NCBI GenBank assembly: GCA_050291745.1
Contig: JBNKKI010000173.1
Coordinates: 3,428-67,427 of the forward strand
Length of the DNA stretch: 64,000 bases
Origin: Gammaproteobacteria bacterium
GTDB lineage: Bacteria; Pseudomonadota; Gammaproteobacteria; GCA-001735895
Reading direction: 5' to 3'
Shown: piece after piece, positions 1,087 through 64,000 of the stretch
Layout of the letters: each line of letters opens with the position of its first letter
How positions within the stretch are numbered: the stretch's first letter is position 1
Notes under the pieces: model-generated
What the model saw: only the letters and a program-made list of their open reading frames with translations
What the model was told of the DNA's origin: nothing
Database searches by the model: none
Program-made: the position numbers and the translations under genes

Positions 1087-2625
1087 ATGTCAGTCTCAAA
1101 TGCATTTAAGCTATTTAAAATTCGTGGTGGTGTTCATCCCGATGACCGCAAGTCATTGAGTGGCAAAAAGACCATCGAAAATCTGCCGATGCCGGCACTA
1201 CTGCATATTCCCTTGCAACAGCATATTGGTGCACCAGCAGCTGCGCTGGTTACGCGCGGAGAAATGGTTAAAAAAGGCCAGTTATTAGCACGTAGTCAAG
1301 GTGCGATTTCAGCACCTGTTCATGCGCCCACTTCGGGGAAAATCATGGGTGTTGGTGGTTATCCTGCACATCATGCATCTGGTTTACTGGTGCGTACCAT
1401 TACTCTTAAGCCAGATGGGCTGGATGAATGGATAGATGACCTTGATCCGGTAGCAGACCCTTTTATTCTTTCGCCTGATGAAATCTCCAAACGCGTTGCC
1501 AACGCGGGTATTGTTGGTATGGGTGGTGCAACTTTCCCTTCATCAGTGAAATTAAATTTACGTAAGCGCTACAGTCTCGATACACTGGTGATTAACGGTG
1601 CCGAATGTGAACCTTATCTGACCTGTGATGACCGTTTAATGCAGGAACATAGTGACGAAGTGCTGCAGGGTATTTTGCTGATGGCGCGAGCACTGGAAGT
1701 TGAGAAAGTTTTAATCGCTATTGAAAACAATAAACCTGACGCCATTGCAGCCATGCGGCAGGCAGCTGTAGATTTTCCTCATGTTCAGGTTGTTGGTTTA
1801 CCTACCCGCTATCCCATGGGGTCAGAAAAACATATGGTGCAAACCCTCACTGGTAAAGAAACACCAGCACGCGGTTTGACCGCTGATATTGGTATCGTAG
1901 TTCACAATGTAGCGACTGCTCTGGCTGTAAATGATGCCATTAAACATGGTCATCCATTAATATCTCGGGTGATGACCGTTTCCGGTTCAGCGATTAAACA
2001 ACCCAAAAATGTACGTGTCCTAATCGGTACACCTTTAGATAATCTGGTTGAATTTTGTGGTGGTTATAGCGAAGAGCCGGCCAAAATAATCAGTGGTGGT
2101 CCAATGATGGGGCAGCCTCTACGCGAAACTCGTGTACCTGCCGTAAAAGGCAGTAACGGCTTGCTGGCATTAACAGCAGCAGAAATCAATGCTGCACCCG
2201 AGATGCCCTGCATCCGCTGTGCCAGTTGTGTACAGGCTTGTCCCTGCGGCCTGGTGCCACTGGAAATGGCTTCTAATATTCGTGCCGGTAGCCTGGATAA
2301 CTCGGTTGGCATAGGTTTACTCGACTGTATTGCCTGCGGTTCCTGCTCCTATGTCTGTCCAGCCCATATTCCGCTGGTGCAATACTTTAATTACGCCAAA
2401 GGTGAACTTGCTCAACGTCAGCGCCTGCAACATAAACAGGGTGAAACTAAACGATTGACTGAAGCACGTACTGAACGGATGGAAAAAATTAAACAGGCTA
2501 AACGGGAAGCGATGAAAAAGCGAAAACTGGAAATGGAAGCCAAAAAGAAAAAGGAAGCAGAGGCAGCAGCCCTGGCACAGGCAGCCAGTGAACAGACCGA
2601 GAGCAGTCAACAGGAGGTCGTATGA
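1087..2625 (+). CDS. rnfC: Rnf complex subunit C (RnfC), NADH-binding/Fe-S subunit with Lys/Glu-rich C-terminal tail
   Basis: 512 aa, CIRCASCVQACP and CIACGSCSYVCP 4Fe-4S motifs, GG.TFP NADH-binding region; position between rnfB and rnfD. Confidence 0.9.
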   Translation: MSVSNAFKLFKIRGGVHPDDRKSLSGKKTIENLPMPALLHIPLQQHIGAPAAALVTRGEMVKKGQLLARSQGAISAPVHAPTSGKIMGVGGYPAHHASGLLVRTITLKPDGLDEWIDDLDPVADPFILSPDEISKRVANAGIVGMGGATFPSSVKLNLRKRYSLDTLVINGAECEPYLTCDDRLMQEHSDEVLQGILLMARALEVEKVLIAIENNKPDAIAAMRQAAVDFPHVQVVGLPTRYPMGSEKHMVQTLTGKETPARGLTADIGIVVHNVATALAVNDAIKHGHPLISRVMTVSGSAIKQPKNVRVLIGTPLDNLVEFCGGYSEEPAKIISGGPMMGQPLRETRVPAVKGSNGLLALTAAEINAAPEMPCIRCASCVQACPCGLVPLEMASNIRAGSLDNSVGIGLLDCIACGSCSYVCPAHIPLVQYFNYAKGELAQRQRLQHKQGETKRLTEARTERMEKIKQAKREAMKKRKLEMEAKKKKEAEAAALAQAASEQTESSQQEVV

Positions 2626-3719
2626 TCGAACAACCACTTATAGCCGGTCCCTATACCCACGAAGGGAATAGCATCAGCAAAACCATGCAAATGGTGATGC
2701 TTGCATTAGTCCCTGCGACTCTGGTTGGTTTTTATATGTTCGGCTGGCCTGCCATTTATCTTTTTGCTATTACCATAGGTAGTGCAATGCTGGCAGAATT
2801 TCTGTCGCTAAAAGTGGCAGCTAAACCGGTACGCCCTTTTTTAATGGATGGTTCGGCTATATTGACTGGCTGGCTACTGGCGATGACACTACCTCCCTGG
2901 GCCCCCTGGTGGATCGCGGTGGTTGGATCATTTTTAGCTATTGTTGTCGGTAAACAGGTATTTGGTGGTCTGGGTCAGAATTTATTTAATCCAGCTATGG
3001 TCGCACGTGTTGCCTTACTGATTTCTTTTCCTCTTGAAATGACTTTATTCAGTGCCCCTGCACCTATTTTTTCAGCTAGTGCACCAGACTGGTTGCAGGG
3101 ATTGTCAATCACTTTTGGTACCGGCTCTGAATTCGATGCCATTAGTAGTGCGACACCCTTAGGACATATCAAAACTGAGTTGGGTACAGGTAAAAGTCTG
3201 ACTGAAGTCATGCAGGGCACTGAATCTCTAATACAGATGATCTTTGGAAAATCTCCAGGCAGTCTGGGTGAAACTTCCGCCATATTTATATTATTAGGTG
3301 GTTTGTTTTTACTCTATAAAAAGATTATTACCTGGTATATTCCTGTTTCCATGCTGGCTACTCTGGCTCTTTTGGCTGGCGTATTTCATCTGATTAATCC
3401 TCAGCTTTATCCCGGTGCTTTAACCCATTTAATGTCAGGGGCAGCAATGCTGGGTGCTTTTTTTATTGCAACCGATCTGGTGACTTCTCCAGTCTCAATT
3501 CGCGGGCAACTCATATTTGGAGCAGGATGTGGTTTATTTGTATATGTCATTCGAACCTGGGCAGGTTACCCTGAGGGTGTAGCTTTTGCAGTCATGTTAA
3601 TGAATGCCTGTACACCGCTTATTGATCACTACTTCAAGCCCAGAATCTATGGTCGTGATAGAAAAGGAGAGCCACTTAATTATGCCCCTGTAGAAAGTAG
3701 TAAAGAGAGTGCGTCATGA
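2622..3719 (+). CDS. rnfD: Rnf complex subunit D (RnfD), NqrB-like membrane subunit
   Basis: 365 aa polytopic membrane protein, GGLGQNLFNPAM motif region conserved in RnfD/NqrB; start overlaps rnfC stop (ATGA). Confidence 0.9.
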   Translation: MIEQPLIAGPYTHEGNSISKTMQMVMLALVPATLVGFYMFGWPAIYLFAITIGSAMLAEFLSLKVAAKPVRPFLMDGSAILTGWLLAMTLPPWAPWWIAVVGSFLAIVVGKQVFGGLGQNLFNPAMVARVALLISFPLEMTLFSAPAPIFSASAPDWLQGLSITFGTGSEFDAISSATPLGHIKTELGTGKSLTEVMQGTESLIQMIFGKSPGSLGETSAIFILLGGLFLLYKKIITWYIPVSMLATLALLAGVFHLINPQLYPGALTHLMSGAAMLGAFFIATDLVTSPVSIRGQLIFGAGCGLFVYVIRTWAGYPEGVAFAVMLMNACTPLIDHYFKPRIYGRDRKGEPLNYAPVESSKESAS

Positions 3720-22289: not shown

Positions 22290-22492
22290 CTGGAAAAATC
22301 AGTTAATCATGAAAGTCCAGGTAACAGCTTAATGCAGCTGATAAAATCAAAAACACGCTCATCACAAATCAGCTGACTACGCTGTTTTTGATTTCCCGGC
22401 AATTGCTCTACCTACAGCCATCTCTGGCTTAGACCAGGCGCATCAATCTGTTACGCATCTTTTTCACGCTGAACTGATTTTTCCAGGTTCAA
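22290..22492 (+). repeat. Repeat family B copy B1 (~203 bp)
   Basis: CTGGAAAAATCAGTTAATCATGAAAGTCCAGGTAACAGCTTAATGCAGCTGATAAAATCAAAAACAC...TTGATTTCCCGGCAATTGCTC...GCATCTTTTTCACGCTGAACTGATTTTTCCAGGTTCAA; two further copies at 24801 and 26449. Confidence 0.65.
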
Positions 22493-24800: not shown

Positions 24801-25013
24801 CCTAGAAAAATCAGTTGAATCATGAAAGTCTACGTAACAGCTTAATGCAGCTGATAAAATCAAAAACACAGTCTTCACCAATCAGCTGACTACGGTGTTT
24901 TTAATTTGCCGGCAATTGCTCCTGCATTGCTCTAACTACAGCCATCCCCGGCTTAGACCAGGCAAATCAATCTGTTACGCATCTTTTTCACGCTCAACTG
25001 GTTTTTCTAGGAT
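24801..25013 (+). repeat. Repeat family B copy B2 (~213 bp), immediately upstream of OMP-like gene
   Basis: CCTAGAAAAATCAGTTGAATCATGAAAGTCTACGTAACAGCTTAATGCAGCTGATAAAATCAAAAACAC...GCATCTTTTTCACGCTCAACTGGTTTTTCTAGGATT; carries a 14-bp perfect inverted repeat AAAATCAAAAACAC/GTGTTTTTAATTTG. Confidence 0.7.
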
Positions 25014-25035
25014 TAAAGAATTAAATAAATTTCAT

Positions 25036-26448: not shown

Positions 26449-26662
26449 CCTAGAAAAATCAGTTGAATCATGAAAGTCTATGTAACATCTTAATGCACCT
26501 GATAAAATCAAAAACACACTCTTCACCAATCAGGTGACTATGGTGTTTTTGATTTGCCGGCAATTGCTCCTGCATTGCTCTAACTACAGCCATCTCTGGC
26601 TTAGACCAGGCGCATCAATCTGTTACGCATCTTTTTCACGCTCAACTGATTTTTCTAGGTTA
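26449..26662 (+). repeat. Repeat family B copy B3 (~214 bp), immediately upstream of lipoprotein gene
   Basis: Near-identical to B2 (CCTAGAAAAATCAGTTGAATCATGAAAGTCTATGTAACATCTTAATGCACCTGATAAAATCAAAAACAC...CTCAACTGATTTTTCTAGGTT). Confidence 0.7.
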
Positions 26663-26725
26663 ATGGAATCATGTCCTGTATGGTCTTTTTCTACAGCCTC
26701 ATTATATAAAAAAGGAAAAACTGAA

Positions 26726-58605: not shown

Positions 58606-58850
58606 TATCTATGATCCTGGATTCCGCAGTTGACCGCTCGCAATAGAGGTTAACCCACTGTTTCATAAACCATGACAGTTGATGTGTATAATCACCCAAT
58701 CGATGCATCCCGCTACGAACTGAATTGCAGGTTTGAGGCTGCGTATCTCTTCGTTGTAACTCCTTGCAATAGCTGGCTATTCCGCGTCGTTACGCCTTGA
58801 TCTACACCACCTCAAACGCACAATCAACTCGTCCAACTGCGAATTCTAGC
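58606..58850 (+). repeat. MITE-like repeat family A, full-length copy A7 (~245 bp); its right end contains the stop codon of the hybrid kinase gene
   Basis: CCTGGATTCCGCAGTTGACCGCTCGCAATAGAGGTTAACCC...CTCGTCCAACTGCGAATTCTAGC; minus-strand TAG (58846-58848) lies inside GAATTCTAGC. Confidence 0.75.
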
Positions 58851-61413
58851 TTAAATACTGTGTTATAAATGTATTTAACCCTTCGATATCAAACCCTTTT
58901 GCCAGTTTCATTAGCTGCTGAGCAAAGGGGATGAAAGCTTCATTCTCTGATTGTAAACGAGAGGCTTGCTCCTGTATTTCAAATACCTGTCCTACTTCGA
59001 TTAATTGATTTAGTTCGAGTAACTGTTCGCGGGGCGGTACAACCATGGGTATTTCGGGTTCATTGGCTTCCTCTGCGTATATATATGTCAATCCCAGTTG
59101 CTTTTCCAGACAATGGTATATCTCTTCAAAGTGATAAGGTTTGCTGACGTAGTCATCCATGCCTGATGCACGTAATGTTGCTTCCTGCTCTTTTAATGCG
59201 GAGGCGGTGACGGCAACGATTTTCACCTCGCCGCCGCCCGGCAATGCACGAATTTGTTGAGTGGCCTCGTCTCCGTCCATGATTGGCATGCGTTGGTCCA
59301 TCCAGATCAGATCCGGTTTCCAGTCTTCGAATATCTGTATGCACTCCTTGCCGTTCTGTGCCACCTTTACCTCCAGGCCAAGGTCTGTCATTAGCCTGGA
59401 GAGCAGGATTTGATTATCCTGCTGATCTTCGGCAATCAGGATTTTGCGACTGGACTGTTGCGGCGCAATACCAGCCACAGCTCCGTGCCTTTCTCCGCTC
59501 AGACGTTTTATATCTACCTCATCGGCTTCATTCAGTGGCAGCTTGACGCGGAATAGCGACCCCTTGCCCGTTTGGCTTTCAACGGAGATATCCCCCTGCA
59601 TCAATTGTACGAACTGGTATACGATAGTGAGTCCCAGTCCGGTTCCACCGTGTGAAGAAGTGCCTGCAGACAGTTGTTCGAAAGGCTTAAAAAGACGCTG
59701 CTGGTCGAAGCTACTAATCCCCGGGCCAGTATCCTCTACCTCGATCAGTAGCTTGTGATGAGCGTTGTGCCAATTGCGCAGGCGGATGGTCACGCTGCCT
59801 AGTTCGGTGAACTTCACTGCATTGCTCACCAGATTCACCAGGATCTGTCGAAGCCGAGCCTCGTCGCCCTTGATGTAGCGCGGGCAGTCTGATGATTGAT
59901 CCAGCTCCAGTTGCAGACCTTTCTGTTGCGCTCGCAGTCTCATCATGTCACTAACTTCTCGCACCAGATTTTGTAAATTAAAACTGGCGATATCAAGTTG
60001 TAACTTGCCAGCCTCGATTTTGGCGATTTCCAGTACGTCATTGATCAGTTTGAGCAGGTGATCACCGCTGTGATTAATGATATCCAGGTTTTCCCGCTGA
60101 CTGGCGCTCAAGGAGCTGTCACTATGCATGAGTTGCGAGAAGCCGAGGATTGCGTTGAGTGGCGTGCGCAACTCATGGCTCATGTTAGCCAGGAACACAC
60201 TCTTTGCCTTATTCGCGGCTTCAGCAGCATCGCGTGCCAGACGCAGTTCATCAGTACGTTGCTGGACTGTTTCCTCAAGATGATCTTTGTAGCGTACAAG
60301 TTCCTGTTCCGTCCGTTTACGTTCGCTGAGATCGTAAACCATGCCGACATATCCTGTAATACCGCCACCCTCGTTGTAGAGTGCTGTTACTGACAGATTA
60401 ACTGGTACTCGGCTTCCATCTTTGCGCACAAAGTTCCATTCGTTTTCTTCAGCAAGATTGCGCTGCGGGCGGGCAGCAAATACCTGAAATCCCGGTTGGA
60501 TTGTTTCGCCCAATTCGTTTGACAACTGTTGGGCATAGCGTGCGATTTCTTCCGGATCGTGCCAGTATTCGGGCGTCTGCTTTGCAACGATCTCGTCTTC
60601 CGTATAACCCAGTAAACGCTCAGCAGCAGGATTAAAACTGGTGACAATGCCTTCCGGTGTCGCGGAGATGATGCCGTAGGCTACATTATCCAGAATCGTG
60701 CGCTGAAAAAGCGTGAGCTGTTGCAAGTCATCTTCTCGCTCCTGGATAGTTTCCATCATGGCGTTGAAGTTTTTGCCCAGCTGTGCCACTTCATCGGTGC
60801 CAGTCGCGGGAACGCGATGCGTATAGTTCGCACTGGCCCGAACTAGTTGGGTCGCCTGGGTCAAATTTGCAATGGGGCGCGTGAGTGTGCGTCGTAAAAC
60901 CAGCAGTTGGGCAACTGTAGCCAGAAGCACAACGAGTACACCCATAGCGAATACCCACAGAGCCTGATGTGTTTGCTGGCGAAGTTGTTCAAGTCCAATG
61001 CTTAGCCGTAGACGACCTCCACTGGGGAGCACTTGTAACAATTCTGCTGTATTTCGTTCCAGATAGAGACCATCCGGTCTGGTCGGTAAAGGAGCCGGGG
61101 TAAGGTTTGGTAGCTGGCTGAAACTGGCGAGTATGCGCCCGCTATCGAGGTAAATGACTGCTTCCTGTATTTGCGAATTTGACTGCAGGCTATCGAGAAT
61201 TTCCTGTGCACGGGTGGGGTCCTCAAAAGCCACCGCTGCGTCTGTGCCGACTGAAACCAGTTGTGCATAGGGGTCCATGATCTGGTGGGTGCGTTGCTCC
61301 AGAGTAAAACTCTGAAACAGCACTACACCAATGCCGGTCACAACAAATGCCAGAAGGGCGACCCCCCAAAGCACGAGTGCAAGTCTGTTATGTATGTTTA
61401 GCTGGATAGACAT
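58846..61413 (-). CDS. Hybrid sensor histidine kinase / response regulator with C-terminal Hpt-like tail
   Basis: 855 aa; N-terminal TM plus periplasmic domain, HAMP, PAS (with coiled coil), HisKA H-box (NMSHELRTPLNAI), HATPase (GTGLGLTIV), REC (DLIWMDQRMPIMDG), then ~110 aa containing KLAKG. Confidence 0.85.
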   Translation of the reverse strand: MSIQLNIHNRLALVLWGVALLAFVVTGIGVVLFQSFTLEQRTHQIMDPYAQLVSVGTDAAVAFEDPTRAQEILDSLQSNSQIQEAVIYLDSGRILASFSQLPNLTPAPLPTRPDGLYLERNTAELLQVLPSGGRLRLSIGLEQLRQQTHQALWVFAMGVLVVLLATVAQLLVLRRTLTRPIANLTQATQLVRASANYTHRVPATGTDEVAQLGKNFNAMMETIQEREDDLQQLTLFQRTILDNVAYGIISATPEGIVTSFNPAAERLLGYTEDEIVAKQTPEYWHDPEEIARYAQQLSNELGETIQPGFQVFAARPQRNLAEENEWNFVRKDGSRVPVNLSVTALYNEGGGITGYVGMVYDLSERKRTEQELVRYKDHLEETVQQRTDELRLARDAAEAANKAKSVFLANMSHELRTPLNAILGFSQLMHSDSSLSASQRENLDIINHSGDHLLKLINDVLEIAKIEAGKLQLDIASFNLQNLVREVSDMMRLRAQQKGLQLELDQSSDCPRYIKGDEARLRQILVNLVSNAVKFTELGSVTIRLRNWHNAHHKLLIEVEDTGPGISSFDQQRLFKPFEQLSAGTSSHGGTGLGLTIVYQFVQLMQGDISVESQTGKGSLFRVKLPLNEADEVDIKRLSGERHGAVAGIAPQQSSRKILIAEDQQDNQILLSRLMTDLGLEVKVAQNGKECIQIFEDWKPDLIWMDQRMPIMDGDEATQQIRALPGGGEVKIVAVTASALKEQEATLRASGMDDYVSKPYHFEEIYHCLEKQLGLTYIYAEEANEPEIPMVVPPREQLLELNQLIEVGQVFEIQEQASRLQSENEAFIPFAQQLMKLAKGFDIEGLNTFITQYLS

Positions 61414-61694
61414 CTTTTATCTCATATGGTGTTTTTCCTTGTTCCGGATTATCGCCGGAAACTTACAGCTTTCTAGTCTGTATAGTCGTGCAGCAACCCG
61501 GACTGCCCGATTTCCATGCTTGCTGCCAGCTCATCATTAAACCGTCATTTTGTTTTATATCAATTCAATAGCTGAGACTATGGTATCTATTTTAGCTCAG
61601 CATTTAGTCTCTATGTTGAGTACTTTTATTTTAATATCTTTTTTTATTTTTTGGCGCAGCCACTCCAGTGCAGGTCAATATTATTGCAATACAC

Positions 61695-61717
61695 AGCTGC
61701 GGAATCCAGGTTGAATT
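61695..61717 (-). repeat. Family A terminus fragment (A8)
   Basis: CAGCTGCGGAATCCAGGTTGAATT = isolated A-element end. Confidence 0.4.
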
Positions 61718-61751
61718 ATGATTATCAGTCAGTAGCCTCAGAGACTGTGTT

Positions 61752-61848
61752 TTTATTCTGTTCCTAATACTCCCGTGTTGGAACCGAAAGATTTAGCGAT
61801 CATTTGATCTCGTATGCATTACCACGCGGGAGCGTGGGAACGAGAGAA
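61752..61848 (+). repeat. Repeat family C copy C1 (97-bp imperfect palindromic element)
   Basis: TATTCTGTTCCTAATACTCCCGTGTTGGAAC...CATTACCACGCGGGAGCGTGGGAACGAGAGAAT; arms TTCTGTTCC..ACTCCCG / CGGGAG..GGAAC..AGAA are inverted repeats. Confidence 0.6.
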
Positions 61849-62041
61849 ATAGGTGGGGGGCAATACTTTTACAAAAAAATGGCGTTACTATATTAAAAAT
61901 ATGGTGAAATATATTCAAAGTGAAAGTGCTAACAGTTAAATTGTATTTGGAAGCAGCAAATCTTACACAGCATTTTACTGTCATAAACACCTGCCGGTTT
62001 AGGTGAATTCGTTAGCATTACAGGAGTTCAATGTGATTAAA

Positions 62042-62431
62042 ATAATAAAAAGCTATTTATTGAAAAAAAAATGGGAGAATCGAAAGCTCCCGGATGGTCA
62101 AAAACTTTCAGAAAAATGGAAAACAATTAAAAAGGAATTTCCAGATGATATTATATCTTTAATAAAGGATTTAAGTGAAACGGAAACAGCTAGTGTCTGC
62201 TTACATAATGACGATATTACTCCCATGGAATATGTCGTGTTTGTTCTTCAGCATTGTTTTGGTTTTAGTGCAGATGAATCTATTAAAAAAATGTTGGAGA
62301 TTCACACTAAAGGTGACAGCATTATATTAACTGGTATGAACTCGAATTCGGCTGCAATTGTTGTTTTTTATTTACGCGGACACGCTAATTCAAGGGGGTA
62401 TCCACTAGAGTGGAAGGTCAAAGATGCATAA
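62042..62431 (+). CDS. ClpS-domain protein (ATP-dependent Clp protease adaptor paralog) with extended N-terminus
   Basis: C-terminal ...LHNDDITPMEYVVFVLQHCFGFSADESIKKMLEIHTKGDSIILTGMNSNSAAIVVFYLRGHANSRGYPLEWKVKDA aligns to the ClpS core. Start set at GTG 62042 (AGGAG RBS, 6-nt spacer) rather than GTG 62003. Confidence 0.65.
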   Translation: MIKSYLLKKKWENRKLPDGQKLSEKWKTIKKEFPDDIISLIKDLSETETASVCLHNDDITPMEYVVFVLQHCFGFSADESIKKMLEIHTKGDSIILTGMNSNSAAIVVFYLRGHANSRGYPLEWKVKDA

Positions 62432-62528
62432 TAAATTATCCCTCCAGAAACAAATTACATGCCTAAAATTTGTACGTGCTTTTACTCTGTTCATCTATGA
62501 ATATGGAAATTGAGAAAATTACTAGAGA

Positions 62529-62867
62529 ATGCTTATGAGTGAAAAGAAGCCTGATTTGTACAGCATGAATAATGCAGTCTTAGACAGCTATCCAATGGAA
62601 ACTGAAGAACAGTTTATTTTAGATATAGCTAAGGGAGTAAAACCTTCTGTAGCCCTGCAAAGCTTTATAAAGAGCAATGCTTGTGAATCACTGGATTCAT
62701 CAGTAATTTTGGATCTTTTGAGGAAGGCATACACGGGTATTAAGATTGGCGAGATTTCCGGCTTAATACATGATTCTGGCTACCCGTTTGCTGCCGGTGA
62801 AGATCTAAGTCACTTGAAATTTGATGAGATTGTTACTCAAGCATATGAAAATCCATCGGAATGGTGA
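62529..62867 (+). CDS. Hypothetical protein (112 aa)
   Basis: Open frame following the ClpS-like gene inside the module bounded by the two family-C repeats; no recognisable family. Confidence 0.4.
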   Translation: MLMSEKKPDLYSMNNAVLDSYPMETEEQFILDIAKGVKPSVALQSFIKSNACESLDSSVILDLLRKAYTGIKIGEISGLIHDSGYPFAAGEDLSHLKFDEIVTQAYENPSEW

Positions 62868-62953
62868 AAGTATTGTTTTGATGTGTCCAGGTTAACTCTT
62901 CTGGAGTGGCTGAAGTTCTTCGCTTTACTTCAGGATCTGATTGTAGAAAATGT

Positions 62954-63050
62954 TATTCTGGTTCTCATACTCCCGCATTGGAACTTTTATTTCTGGCGGT
63001 CAATTTGAGCTCGTTTGCATTCCCGCGCAGAGCGTTGGGAACGAGAGAAT
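62954..63050 (+). repeat. Repeat family C copy C2 (97 bp)
   Basis: TATTCTGGTTCTCATACTCCCGCATTGGAAC...CATTCCCGCGCAGAGCGTTGGGAACGAGAGAAT; same length and arm structure as C1. Confidence 0.6.
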
Positions 63051-63145
63051 GTTGACTTCTTTTAACAGAGCTTTTATCTTCCCTGCATTTTTATTATACG
63101 GATGTACTGCTCGTATGCCTACTCACTGCTCACTGAAAGACAATC

Positions 63146-64000
63146 GTGAAAAATAACTACATAATTAAACAGGATAAGAACCCCGCCTATTTCTATCAAA
63201 TTGATGCGAGGAAAGACTTGTGTATCGTGGTGAGTGGTAGTCCAGACCAGGTACCAGGCATAGAGATTACTCGATTTTCCACGGAGCAGGAGGCAGCACA
63301 GGAGGCCGCCAGACTAACCCGGGCACGGATAGATGAAGGCTATGTTCAAGATGATAAGCCCAGCAAGCTTTCCTTCTTTGCTGTCGCAATTGATCAACTG
63401 GCCCGTGCTGAAGCTCAAGAATCTGAGAGAGAAATCCTGACCCTGAAAGCTCTGGTCGACGCCTATCATAGTCGACACAGGCACCCTTTTGTTGAATCTT
63501 TGGGCGTTATAATGCGAGATGATGAGCTGGTTTCAATTCCTGTATTAGATGAATATTTGCAAAACAATCTAAAAAAGCTTTCTTCTAGCGCATTGGTCAG
63601 CCTGTTTCAGATGACTTTGCAGGATATCCGTTACAACTTTGCAGCCAGCAGTGTTGTGACAGAGGAAATTGTTAAGAGAAAGGATGAAGTGGCACAGCTC
63701 GCTGTTGTCACTCAATTCACTCTGGCCTGTGAGTATTACGATGCGGGGCACCGCAATAGGGCAAATACCAATCTGGATCTGCTTCTTGATACTTATTTCC
63801 CGCAATTCGAATCGTCAGCCTTACTGGCATTGTTGTCGACAGCAACGCCAGCTATGCTAAATGCTGACGATGGCGATGCTCTGGACGAACTTTTTGTGCC
63901 AGCCCTGCAGCACAGCAATGACAGGGAGTTGCAACAAACTATCATTGATGTTCTCGCAAGCTACAGAAGCGCACGGGATGAAGATGATGATAGTAAGAAA
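63146..64000 (+). CDS. Hypothetical protein, 3' end beyond window (no ATG start; GTG 63146 or TTG ~63218 with AGGA RBS)
   Basis: Uninterrupted frame from 63146 to window end (>280 codons): ...DLCIVVSGSPDQVPGIEITRFSTEQEAAQEAARLTRARIDEGY...; absent from the ORF track because no stop occurs in the window. Confidence 0.4.
   Translation, partial: MKNNYIIKQDKNPAYFYQIDARKDLCIVVSGSPDQVPGIEITRFSTEQEAAQEAARLTRARIDEGYVQDDKPSKLSFFAVAIDQLARAEAQESEREILTLKALVDAYHSRHRHPFVESLGVIMRDDELVSIPVLDEYLQNNLKKLSSSALVSLFQMTLQDIRYNFAASSVVTEEIVKRKDEVAQLAVVTQFTLACEYYDAGHRNRANTNLDLLLDTYFPQFESSALLALLSTATPAMLNADDGDALDELFVPALQHSNDRELQQTIIDVLASYRSARDEDDDSKK

What the first reader, a model, noticed from the sequence alone, without database searches (positions are those of the whole stretch)
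61752..63050. Two 97-bp palindromic elements (family C) flank a two-gene module containing a ClpS-like paralog
C1 (61752-61848) and C2 (62954-63050) are both 97 bp and ~75% identical. Each is an imperfect hairpin (TTCTGTTCC...ACTCCCG // CGGGAG...GGAAC...AGAA). Together they bracket ORFs 62042-62431 (ClpS-domain protein) and 62529-62867 (hypothetical). Downstream lies another orphan ORF with no ATG start. The layout is reminiscent of repeat-bounded gene cassettes. However the repeats lack the RYYYAAC/GTTRRRY cores of integron attC sites and no integrase is in the window, so this may be a different recombination or REP-like system.
Basis: seen in the sequence. Interest (0 to 1): 0.55.

Follow-up and report, generated by a model that had tools for sequence, protein, structure and literature searches.

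The report
Decayed REPIN-type palindromic repeats, not cassettes
The two 97-bp repeats are worn copies of a common bacterial "junk" palindrome (a REP doublet spread by a dedicated transposase-like enzyme) that landed between genes, so they do not mark a new gene-cassette system.

Summary
C1 (61753-61848) and C2 (62953-63049) are the only two copies in the window, lie in the same orientation and are 78% identical. They bracket a ClpS-domain gene and a 110-aa gene.

The cassette reading does not hold. Each element is a head-to-head doublet of one about 30-nt hairpin, TGCATTCCCACGC-loop-GCGTGGGAACGAG. The right arm is well kept and the left arm is decayed.

- That hairpin occurs in at least 118 genome stretches from six or more phyla, where about 0.5 are expected by chance.
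- It is mostly extragenic, and about a third of copies form the same 65-150-bp inverted doublets (REPIN architecture).
- In two genomes inverted copies flank both sides of a REP-associated tyrosine transposase (RAYT) gene; two more loci have a copy next to a partial RAYT gene.
- No attC core sites, recombinase or transposase were found in the window.
- Neither bracketed gene keeps its neighbour in other genomes.
- The break in homology with related genomes lies 54 nt outside C1, at the end of a different repeat family.

Verdict: an ordinary REP/REPIN relic pair. The side point of some interest is how little this hairpin varies across phyla, and that it lacks the canonical GT[AG]G foot.

The parts
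61753..61848 (+). C1: 96-nt REPIN-type doublet (two inverted REP hairpins plus a 30-nt spacer)
   Evidence: The boundaries come from the alignment with C2. Its architecture matches the inverted doublets found in other genomes.
61760..61784 (+). C1 left arm: decayed REP hairpin, GTTCCtaatAC-TCCC-GtgTTGGAAC. The strand that reads 5'-CTCG is the + strand here.
   Evidence: 19 of 24 positions match the cross-genome consensus, with one indel. It folds as a local hairpin.
61815..61844 (-). C1 right arm: nearly intact REP hairpin. The - strand reads CTCGTTCCCACGC-TCCC-GCGTGGTAATGCA.
   Evidence: One mismatch to the consensus; 31 of 32 positions match the canonical arm.
62953..63049 (+). C2: 97-nt REPIN-type doublet, more decayed than C1
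   Evidence: 78% identical to C1. Its fold is no better than shuffled sequence.
62961..62984 (+). C2 left arm: decayed REP hairpin, GTTCTCATAC-TCCC-GCATTGGAAC
   Evidence: 21 of 26 positions match the consensus. It shares the derived bases ATAC and TTGGAAC with the C1 left arm.
63016..63045 (-). C2 right arm: REP hairpin with 4 mismatches and shifted bases
62033..62431 (+). ClpS-domain gene (132 aa, about 50-aa N-terminal extension, 33% GC). It lies between the repeats and is not part of them.
   Evidence: Pfam ClpS E = 7e-17. PDB ClpS chains at about 6e-7. Only one relative was found (47% identity), and it sits in another gene context.
62535..62867 (+). 110-aa gene of a rare family. It lacks the 224-aa upstream partner that accompanies two of its relatives (L143, L144).
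63146..64000 (+). Orphan ORF with a GTG start that runs beyond the window (more than 413 aa), with a weak WGR-like N-terminus
61694..61716 (+). Solo terminal piece of repeat family A (CAGCTGCGGAATCCAGGTTGAAT). It marks the true break in homology with related genomes, 54 nt left of C1.
   Evidence: Inverted repeat I3. The blastn breakpoint is at 61699, confirmed by reading the sequences side by side.

Best explanation
C1 and C2 are two old, decaying REPINs. A REPIN is a non-autonomous doublet of a repetitive extragenic palindrome (REP).

**Anatomy.** Each doublet carries two inverted copies of one hairpin, 5'-CTCG-TTCCCA(C/T)GC-loop-GCGTGGGAA-TGCA-3', around a 30-nt spacer.

**Inferred mechanism.**
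- Such hairpins form on single-stranded DNA. A REP-associated tyrosine transposase (RAYT, also called TnpA-REP, an HUH/Y1 enzyme related to the IS200/IS605 transposase) binds, cuts and rejoins them.
- That enzyme spreads REPs and REPINs into intergenic DNA without moving its own gene.
- Two such copies, both descended from a sub-lineage with an already altered left arm, sit in the AT-rich, lineage-specific DNA next to the histidine-kinase gene.
- With only two copies on view, I read the fact that they lie on either side of the ClpS-like and 110-aa genes as a by-product of landing in neighbouring intergenic gaps. It is not evidence of a cassette boundary.

**Shown here:**
- the anatomy of C1 and C2;
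- their membership of the hairpin family;
- the extragenic location of the family and its doublet form;
- the RAYT association in other genomes.

**Inferred:**
- that a RAYT moved these two copies;
- that they are now immobile relics.
For: **Arm identity**
- The C1 right arm matches the cross-genome consensus at 31 of 32 positions. The other three arms are degraded versions of it.

**Distribution of the hairpin**
By my own calculation about 0.5 are expected by chance for 21 fixed bases in 596 Gb.
- The hosts include Pseudomonas, Methylobacter, Thiomargarita, Vibrio, Desulfobacterales, Campylobacterota, Caldilineaceae, Tolypothrix and Planctomycetota.
- It is also present in 15 IMG/VR contigs.
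- Several genomes carry it on many contigs. One MAG (CAZWOY01) has it on at least 9.

**Doublet form**
- About 50 of roughly 158 hits are head-to-head doublets of 65-150 bp, with CTCG on the outside and TGCA on the inside.
- An 82-nt subtype (L017 twice, L044) has the same TTCT(A)GTTCC...GCGTTGGAAC left arm as C1 and C2.

**Extragenic location**
- 22% of hairpin centres lie inside an ORF of at least 120 aa, against 79% of random positions in the same loci.

**RAYT association**
- Genes matching NCBIfam NF047646, REP-associated tyrosine transposase, score 89.7 and 86.9 bits against a cutoff of 80.
- These genes are flanked on both sides by inverted hairpin copies in L037 (Oceanospirillum maris) and L078.
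- Partial RAYT genes lie next to hairpins in L049 and L072.

**Strand asymmetry**
- The only common polymorphism is C/T at one position of the 5' stem half on the strand that reads CTCG.
- It accounts for 27% of right arms and 28% of left arms. The partner G is 98% fixed among left arms (52/53); in right arms that partner base was set by the search pattern.
- On the CTCG strand the variant gives a G-T wobble. On the other strand it gives an A-C mismatch. This is what a hairpin that acts as a single strand should show.

**Fit with the literature**
- REPINs are REP doublets moved by single-copy RAYTs (PMC3116915; PMC3337134).
- RAYT genes are usually flanked by their own REPs, an arrangement called a REPtron (PMC6006769).
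- One RAYT group spans 21 bacterial classes with low-copy flanking repeats (PMC5581495).
Against: - The source genome could not be scanned. Neither a RAYT gene nor further copies are shown for it. There is no RAYT in the window.
- About 60 kb of non-redundant sequence from related MAGs contains no hairpin with 5 or fewer mismatches.
- Only two copies occur in 64 kb, and they are adjacent. Dispersed REPs would not normally look like that.
- The hairpin lacks the 5' GT[AG]G tetranucleotide used to define canonical REPs (PMC6006769).
- The search pattern was derived from C1 and C2, so part of the apparent invariance of the family comes from how the hits were selected.
- No empty site was found, so insertion is inferred rather than seen.
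Confidence: 0.85

Rival explanations
1. The two same-strand REPINs act like the left and right ends of an IS200/IS605-type element. On this reading a RAYT once moved, or could move, the whole 1.3-kb segment (C1, ClpS-like gene, 110-aa gene, C2) as a REP-bounded cassette.
For: - Both elements have the same orientation, so their well-kept right arms lie on the same strand.
- The enclosed DNA is 35% GC against 41.7% for the window.
- Both enclosed genes are rare.
- The block is absent next to the 91%-identical kinase orthologues.
Against: - The break in homology with relatives is at 61699, at a family-A repeat end. It is not at the edge of C1.
- The ORF to the right of C2 is just as orphan as the enclosed genes.
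- Neither gene travels with the other, or with C-like repeats, elsewhere.
- Two metagenome scans for sibling copies found nothing.
Confidence: 0.06
2. C1 and C2 are recombination sites of an integron-like or other site-specific recombinase system, and they delimit a gene cassette.
For: The layout is repeat, small promoter-less-looking genes, repeat, and each repeat is an imperfect palindrome of attC-like length.
Against: - No RYYYAAC or GTTRRRY site lies in or within 30 nt of either element on either strand.
- The elements fold as two local hairpins, not as one bulged stem.
- No tyrosine or serine recombinase domain was found in 45 of the 48 non-overlapping window ORFs of at least 120 aa.
- The surrounding genes are ordinary chromosomal metabolism: Rnf, PutA, the methylcitrate genes and ABC transporters.
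- The arms belong to a family that flanks RAYT genes, not integrases.
Confidence: 0.03
3. They are MITEs: deletion derivatives of a DDE-transposase insertion sequence, recognised through their terminal inverted repeats.
For: They have terminal inverted repeats, are about 100 bp long and are intergenic. The window also holds other MITE-like families, A and B.
Against: - No target-site duplication is evident at either copy.
- Each end is itself a hairpin that also occurs singly, in tandem, and next to other GC-rich hairpins. That is REP/BIME behaviour.
- The only recurring enzyme-coding neighbour that flanks the hairpin is a Y1/HUH RAYT. The other recurring neighbours were generic families such as ABC-transporter, Rnf and phage Rha proteins.
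Confidence: 0.04

Closest known systems
REPINs / BIMEs: REP doublets mobilised by RAYT (TnpA-REP), as in Pseudomonas fluorescens SBW25 and E. coli (PMC3116915, PMC3337134, PMC6006769)
   Same: - Two inverted copies of a short GC-rich palindrome around a spacer, about 100 bp in total.
- Extragenic location.
- Repeated within genomes.
- The same hairpin flanks a RAYT gene on both sides in inverted orientation.
- No target-site duplication is evident.
   Different: - The hairpin foot is CTCG/TGCA rather than the canonical 5' GT[AG]G.
- Nearly the same sequence is found in at least six phyla, whereas the well-studied RAYT groups and their REPINs are reported as mostly vertically inherited (bioRxiv 10.1101/2022.05.22.493013; PMC5581495).
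- Copy density looks low here: 2 copies in 64 kb, and none in about 60 kb of related MAGs.
- The two copies in the window are decayed, and their left arms are no longer good hairpins.
IS200/IS605-family ends (subterminal hairpins cut by the Y1 HUH transposase TnpA)
   Same: A single-strand hairpin with conserved short flanks on both sides. The strand-specific G-T wobble suggests that one strand is the one recognised.
   Different: There is no transposase or tnpB gene between the hairpins here. The left and right ends of an IS are different hairpins on one strand, not inverted doublets.
Integron attC sites and gene cassettes
   Same: Imperfect palindromes of about 60-140 bp at the borders of small ORFs.
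   Different: There are no R''/R' core sites, no integrase and no array. The sequence is conserved across phyla, which is not known for attC sites (my own knowledge).

Membership tests
REP / REPIN-RAYT system | A short (20-40 nt) imperfect palindrome able to form a stem-loop | tested here: met
   The hairpin has a 9-bp stem (TTCCCACGC/GCGTGGGAA) and a 3-4-nt loop. The C1 arms fold locally with z = -3.0.
REP / REPIN-RAYT system | Two REPs in inverted orientation around a short spacer (a REPIN doublet) | tested here: met
   C1 and C2 each have two inverted arms. About 50 comparable doublets of 65-150 bp occur in other genomes.
REP / REPIN-RAYT system | Extragenic location | tested here: met
   C1 and C2 are intergenic. 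Across the family, 22% of hairpins lie inside ORFs against 79% of random positions.
REP / REPIN-RAYT system | Many copies within the same genome | not testable with these tools
   Only the 64-kb window plus 385 nt of the source genome is available, and it holds 2 doublets. Other genomes carry the hairpin on several contigs.
REP / REPIN-RAYT system | A cognate RAYT gene flanked by the same REPs (REPtron) | tested here: inconclusive
   Met in other genomes: L037 and L078 have genes scoring above the NF047646 cutoff, each with inverted hairpins on both sides. It is not shown for the source genome, and there is no RAYT in the window.
REP / REPIN-RAYT system | A 5' GT[AG]G guide tetranucleotide at the hairpin foot (canonical REPs, PMC6006769) | tested here: not met
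   The foot sequences are CTCG and TGCA. The same paper describes RAYT subclasses with atypical feet, so this places the hairpin outside canonical REPs but not outside the wider kind.
Integron attC / gene cassette | R'' RYYYAAC and R' GTTRRRY core sites at the two ends | tested here: not met
   No occurrence on either strand within 61720-61880 or 62920-63080.
Integron attC / gene cassette | An adjacent intI tyrosine recombinase with attI and Pc | tested here: not met
   No recombinase domain was found in 45 of the 48 non-overlapping window ORFs of at least 120 aa. About 17 kb of the source contig lies outside the window and was not seen.
MITE of a DDE insertion sequence | Terminal inverted repeats plus a target-site duplication | tested here: not met
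   The arms are inverted repeats, but the flanks (TGTGTTT|...|ATAGGTG and GAAAATG|...|TGTTGAC) show no duplication.
Intrinsic terminator | A GC-rich stem followed by a run of T | tested here: not met
   No terminator-like site in 61400-63300.
Any Rfam RNA family | A covariance-model match | tested here: not met
   No match at the gathering score in the whole window, and none at E up to 1 in 61500-63300.

The most novel reading that the evidence does not exclude
The hairpin (CTCG foot, no GT[AG]G) and its RAYT form a REP system that moves between phyla with almost no sequence change. In addition, two same-strand copies can behave like IS200/IS605 ends, so that the ClpS-like/110-aa segment was brought in as a REP-bounded cassette.
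Probability: 0.06. Interest if true: 0.6.

Novelty: new member of a known kind. Interest (0 to 1): 0.22.

Why it matters
For this locus it matters little. The repeats are selfish or neutral intergenic DNA, and they say nothing special about the ClpS-like gene.

There is a practical gain. Annotators can mask this hairpin family, which also produces spurious small ORFs such as 62906-63055 and 62950-63156.

The wider point may deserve a separate look. One non-canonical REP hairpin varies very little across at least six phyla, and it shows a strand-specific wobble signature. That bears on whether REP-RAYT systems are always inherited vertically.

Tried and rejected
**Searches that found nothing useful**
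- Exact-protein look-ups for the source contig gave only a 3-kb Logan contig. It is identical to the window and reaches 385 nt past its end. I therefore could not look beyond 64 kb for an integrase or a RAYT.
- Full-text searches for the hairpin sequence returned nothing. Term searches inside three REP papers also found no printed copy.
- Two metagenome scans for sibling copies returned nothing. One used the spacer plus right arm, the other the derived left arm plus TGCATT.
- A homologue search with the downstream ORF returned nothing.

**Analyses that did not give the intended answer**
- Clustering ORFs within 1.5 kb of the hairpin to find a common neighbour gave only generic families (ABC-transporter, Rnf and phage Rha proteins), apart from the small RAYT cluster.
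- Pfam missed those RAYT proteins at E up to 0.001. NCBIfam found them.
- Kinase orthologues were fetched for a synteny, presence/absence test. Their flanks are unrelated to the window, so the test only shows that the block is lineage-specific.

**Ideas considered and dropped**
- CRISPR repeat: the copies are single or in inverted pairs, not spaced arrays.
- Terminator.
- Known RNA family.

Full report
**1. The observation**

- C1 (61753-61848, 96 nt) and C2 (62953-63049, 97 nt) align over their whole length, with sharp edges TTATTCTG...GAGAGAA.
- 76 of 98 columns are identical, with two single-base gaps. The blastn E-value is 1.7e-14 within the window.
- Motifs from either end match only these two places even with 3 mismatches, against 0.04 and 0.00 expected from shuffles.
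- A consensus scan allowing 8 mismatches finds no third copy in the 64 kb.
- The elements are in the same orientation and 1,200 nt apart.

Between them lie two genes.
- The first is a ClpS-domain gene. Its real start is GTG 62033, behind an AGGAG, and it encodes 132 aa (Pfam ClpS E = 7e-17). It matches E. coli ClpS structures at about 6e-7 and keeps the NDD-TPME pocket motif.
- The second is a 110-aa gene at 62535-62867, with no Pfam match.

After C2 comes an ORF with a GTG start at 63146. It runs off the window and is more than 413 aa long on an identical public contig.

**2. Anatomy**

Each element is not one long hairpin. It is two inverted copies of one short hairpin separated by a 30-nt spacer.
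- The C1 right arm reads TGCATTACCACGC-GGGA-GCGTGGGAACGAG on the + strand.
- The left arms (GTTCCTAATAC-TCCC-GTGTTGGAAC in C1) are the same hairpin in the opposite orientation, but degraded.
- Against the canonical arm the scores are: C1 right 31/32, C2 right about 27/31 with indels, C2 left 21/26 and C1 left 19/24.
- Folding gives two local stem-loops. C1 is more stable than shuffles (z = -3.0) and C2 is not (z = -0.3).
- C1 and C2 share derived bases in the left arm (ATAC, TTGGAAC) and most of the spacer. They therefore descend from one already asymmetric sub-lineage.

**3. The hairpin elsewhere**

I searched with the pattern TGCATTNCCNCGCN{6,7}TGGGAACGAG.
- It has 21 fixed bases, so by my calculation about 0.5 chance matches are expected in 596 Gb.
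- It hit 15 IMG/VR contigs.
- The hosts are Gamma- and Betaproteobacteria (Pseudomonas, Methylobacter, Methylomonas, Thiomargarita, Vibrio, Marinicella, Endozoicomonas, Oligella), Desulfobacterota, Campylobacterota, Caldilineaceae, Tolypothrix and Planctomycetota.
- Some MAGs carry it on many contigs.

The copies occur singly, in tandem, next to other GC-rich hairpins of the type GGACGC-GGA-GCGTCC, and as doublets.
- About 50 of roughly 158 matches are head-to-head doublets of 65-150 bp, with CTCG on the outside and TGCA on the inside.
- An 82-nt subtype (L017 twice, and L044 from a Piscirickettsiaceae MAG) has the same TTCT(A)GTTCC...GCGTTGGAAC left arm as C1 and C2.

Hairpin centres lie inside ORFs of at least 120 aa in 22% of cases, against 79% for random positions in the same loci. 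The family is therefore repetitive, extragenic and palindromic.

**4. The associated enzyme**

- Clustering the ORFs near the hairpins gave one small cluster that NCBIfam names REP-associated tyrosine transposase (NF047646). It scores 89.7 and 86.9 bits against a cutoff of 80, and a truncated copy scores 45.7.
- In L037 (Oceanospirillum maris) the gene is at 2345-2905 on the - strand. Hairpins lie at 2306-2334 (-) and 2907-2935 (+).
- In L078 the gene is at 1204-1743 (-). Hairpins lie at 1116-1144 (-) and 1843-1871 (+).
- In both cases inverted hairpins sit on both sides of the gene, which is the REPtron arrangement described in PMC6006769.
- L072 and L049 carry partial copies next to hairpins.
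- The window has no RAYT.

**5. A strand signature**

- At the pattern positions left free, the bases are at least 95% invariant except at one site. That site reads GC[G/A]TGGG, with G in 114 and A in 42 right arms.
- In the left arms, which the pattern did not constrain, the matching site reads CCCA[C/T]GC, with C in 37 and T in 15. Its partner stays G in 52 of 53.
- The change is therefore always C to T on the strand that reads 5'-CTCG...TGCA-3'. There it leaves a G-T wobble, while on the other strand it makes an A-C mismatch.
- This fits a hairpin that works as a single strand, as HUH/Y1 enzymes require. That last step is an inference.
- One caution applies. The pattern came from C1 and C2, so part of the apparent invariance is due to selection of the hits.

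**6. The cassette idea**

- No RYYYAAC or GTTRRRY site lies in or near either element.
- Pfam scans of 45 of the 48 non-overlapping ORFs of at least 120 aa show Rnf, CoA-transferase, thiolase, PutA, ABC transporters, the methylcitrate genes, regulators and kinases. They show no recombinase or transposase.
- The ClpS-like protein has one detectable relative (47% identity). It sits next to V-type ATPase genes, with no 110-aa homologue and no C element.
- The 110-aa protein has 22 relatives among 1.84 billion representatives. In two loci it overlaps the stop codon of a conserved 224-aa partner, which is 60% identical between those loci, unrelated to ClpS and absent here.
- So the "two-gene module" is not a conserved unit.

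**7. The edge of the variable block**

- Kinase orthologues of 91% and 80% protein identity were fetched with 10-kb flanks.
- Nucleotide homology covers only 58851-61699 of the window.
- At 61699 the window continues into CGGAATCCAGGTTGAAT, a solo end of repeat family A. A full family-A copy sits at 58611-58854, on the other side of the kinase gene.
- The lineage-specific block therefore begins 54 nt outside C1, and it includes the orphan ORF beyond C2.
- GC content is 33% for the ClpS-like gene and 35% for the inter-repeat DNA. It is 50% for the kinase gene and 41.7% for the window.
- None of these related loci holds the hairpin.

**8. Conclusion**

C1 and C2 are decayed REPIN-type doublets of a RAYT-associated REP family. 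They sit in the intergenic gaps of an AT-rich accessory stretch.
- The family differs from textbook REPs in its foot, which is CTCG/TGCA rather than GT[AG]G (PMC6006769), and in its spread across phyla.
- PMC5581495 describes a RAYT group found in 21 bacterial classes with low-copy flanking repeats and possible horizontal transfer. This family may belong to it, but I did not test that.
- Three things remain unshown: a RAYT and further copies in the source genome, an empty site, and enzyme activity on this hairpin.

Noticed in passing
L019-L136 and L004-L018 (hairpin hits); window 61815-61844: The hairpin TGCATTCCCACGC-N3-4-GCGTGGGAACGAG is almost unchanged in genomes of at least six phyla and in viral contigs. 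It lacks the canonical GT[AG]G REP foot. Its single common polymorphism is strand-specific (C/T on the CTCG strand, which gives a G-T wobble).
   Followed up: partly
window 61694-61716 and 58611-58854 (also 6567, 18284, 26052, 55635): Repeat family A is about 244 nt long, has ends like TTGAACCTGGAATCCGCAGTTG, and has 5-6 copies in the window. A full copy and a solo end bracket the hybrid histidine-kinase gene. Homology with the 91%-identical orthologue loci stops exactly at these two points.
   Followed up: partly
window 62535-62867; L143 2243-3246; L144 171-1159: The 110-aa protein belongs to a rare family. In two other loci (L143, L144) it is translationally coupled to a conserved 224-aa protein with no Pfam match. 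That partner is missing here, so this looks like an orphan second gene of a two-gene pair, possibly of toxin/immunity type.
   Followed up: partly
window 62033-62431: The ClpS-domain protein has an N-terminal extension of about 50 aa and keeps the N-degron pocket motif (NDD-TPME, H). Only one relative (47% identity) was found by the word-indexed search of 5.8 billion proteins.
   Followed up: partly
window 63146-64000, continuing on L001 to 2998: A large orphan ORF with a GTG or TTG start. It has a weak WGR-like N-terminus (E = 0.087), no other Pfam match and no homologue found.
   Followed up: partly
window 22305-22489, 24801-25021, 26449-26669: Repeat family B is about 100-220 nt long and has three copies within 4.4 kb, 89-93% identical. 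The copies are interleaved with ORFs that have no Pfam match and with a family-A copy.
   Followed up: no
window 62906-63055 and 62950-63156: Small ORFs are read straight through C2 (for example ...AFPRRALGTREC). Gene callers may report such artefacts wherever this REP occurs.
   Followed up: no
window 58846-61413 compared with L140, L141: The C-terminal kinase and receiver half of the hybrid histidine kinase is 72-79% identical in DNA to several paralogous kinase genes in the related MAG contigs. This suggests recent duplication or recombination among sensor kinases.
   Followed up: no
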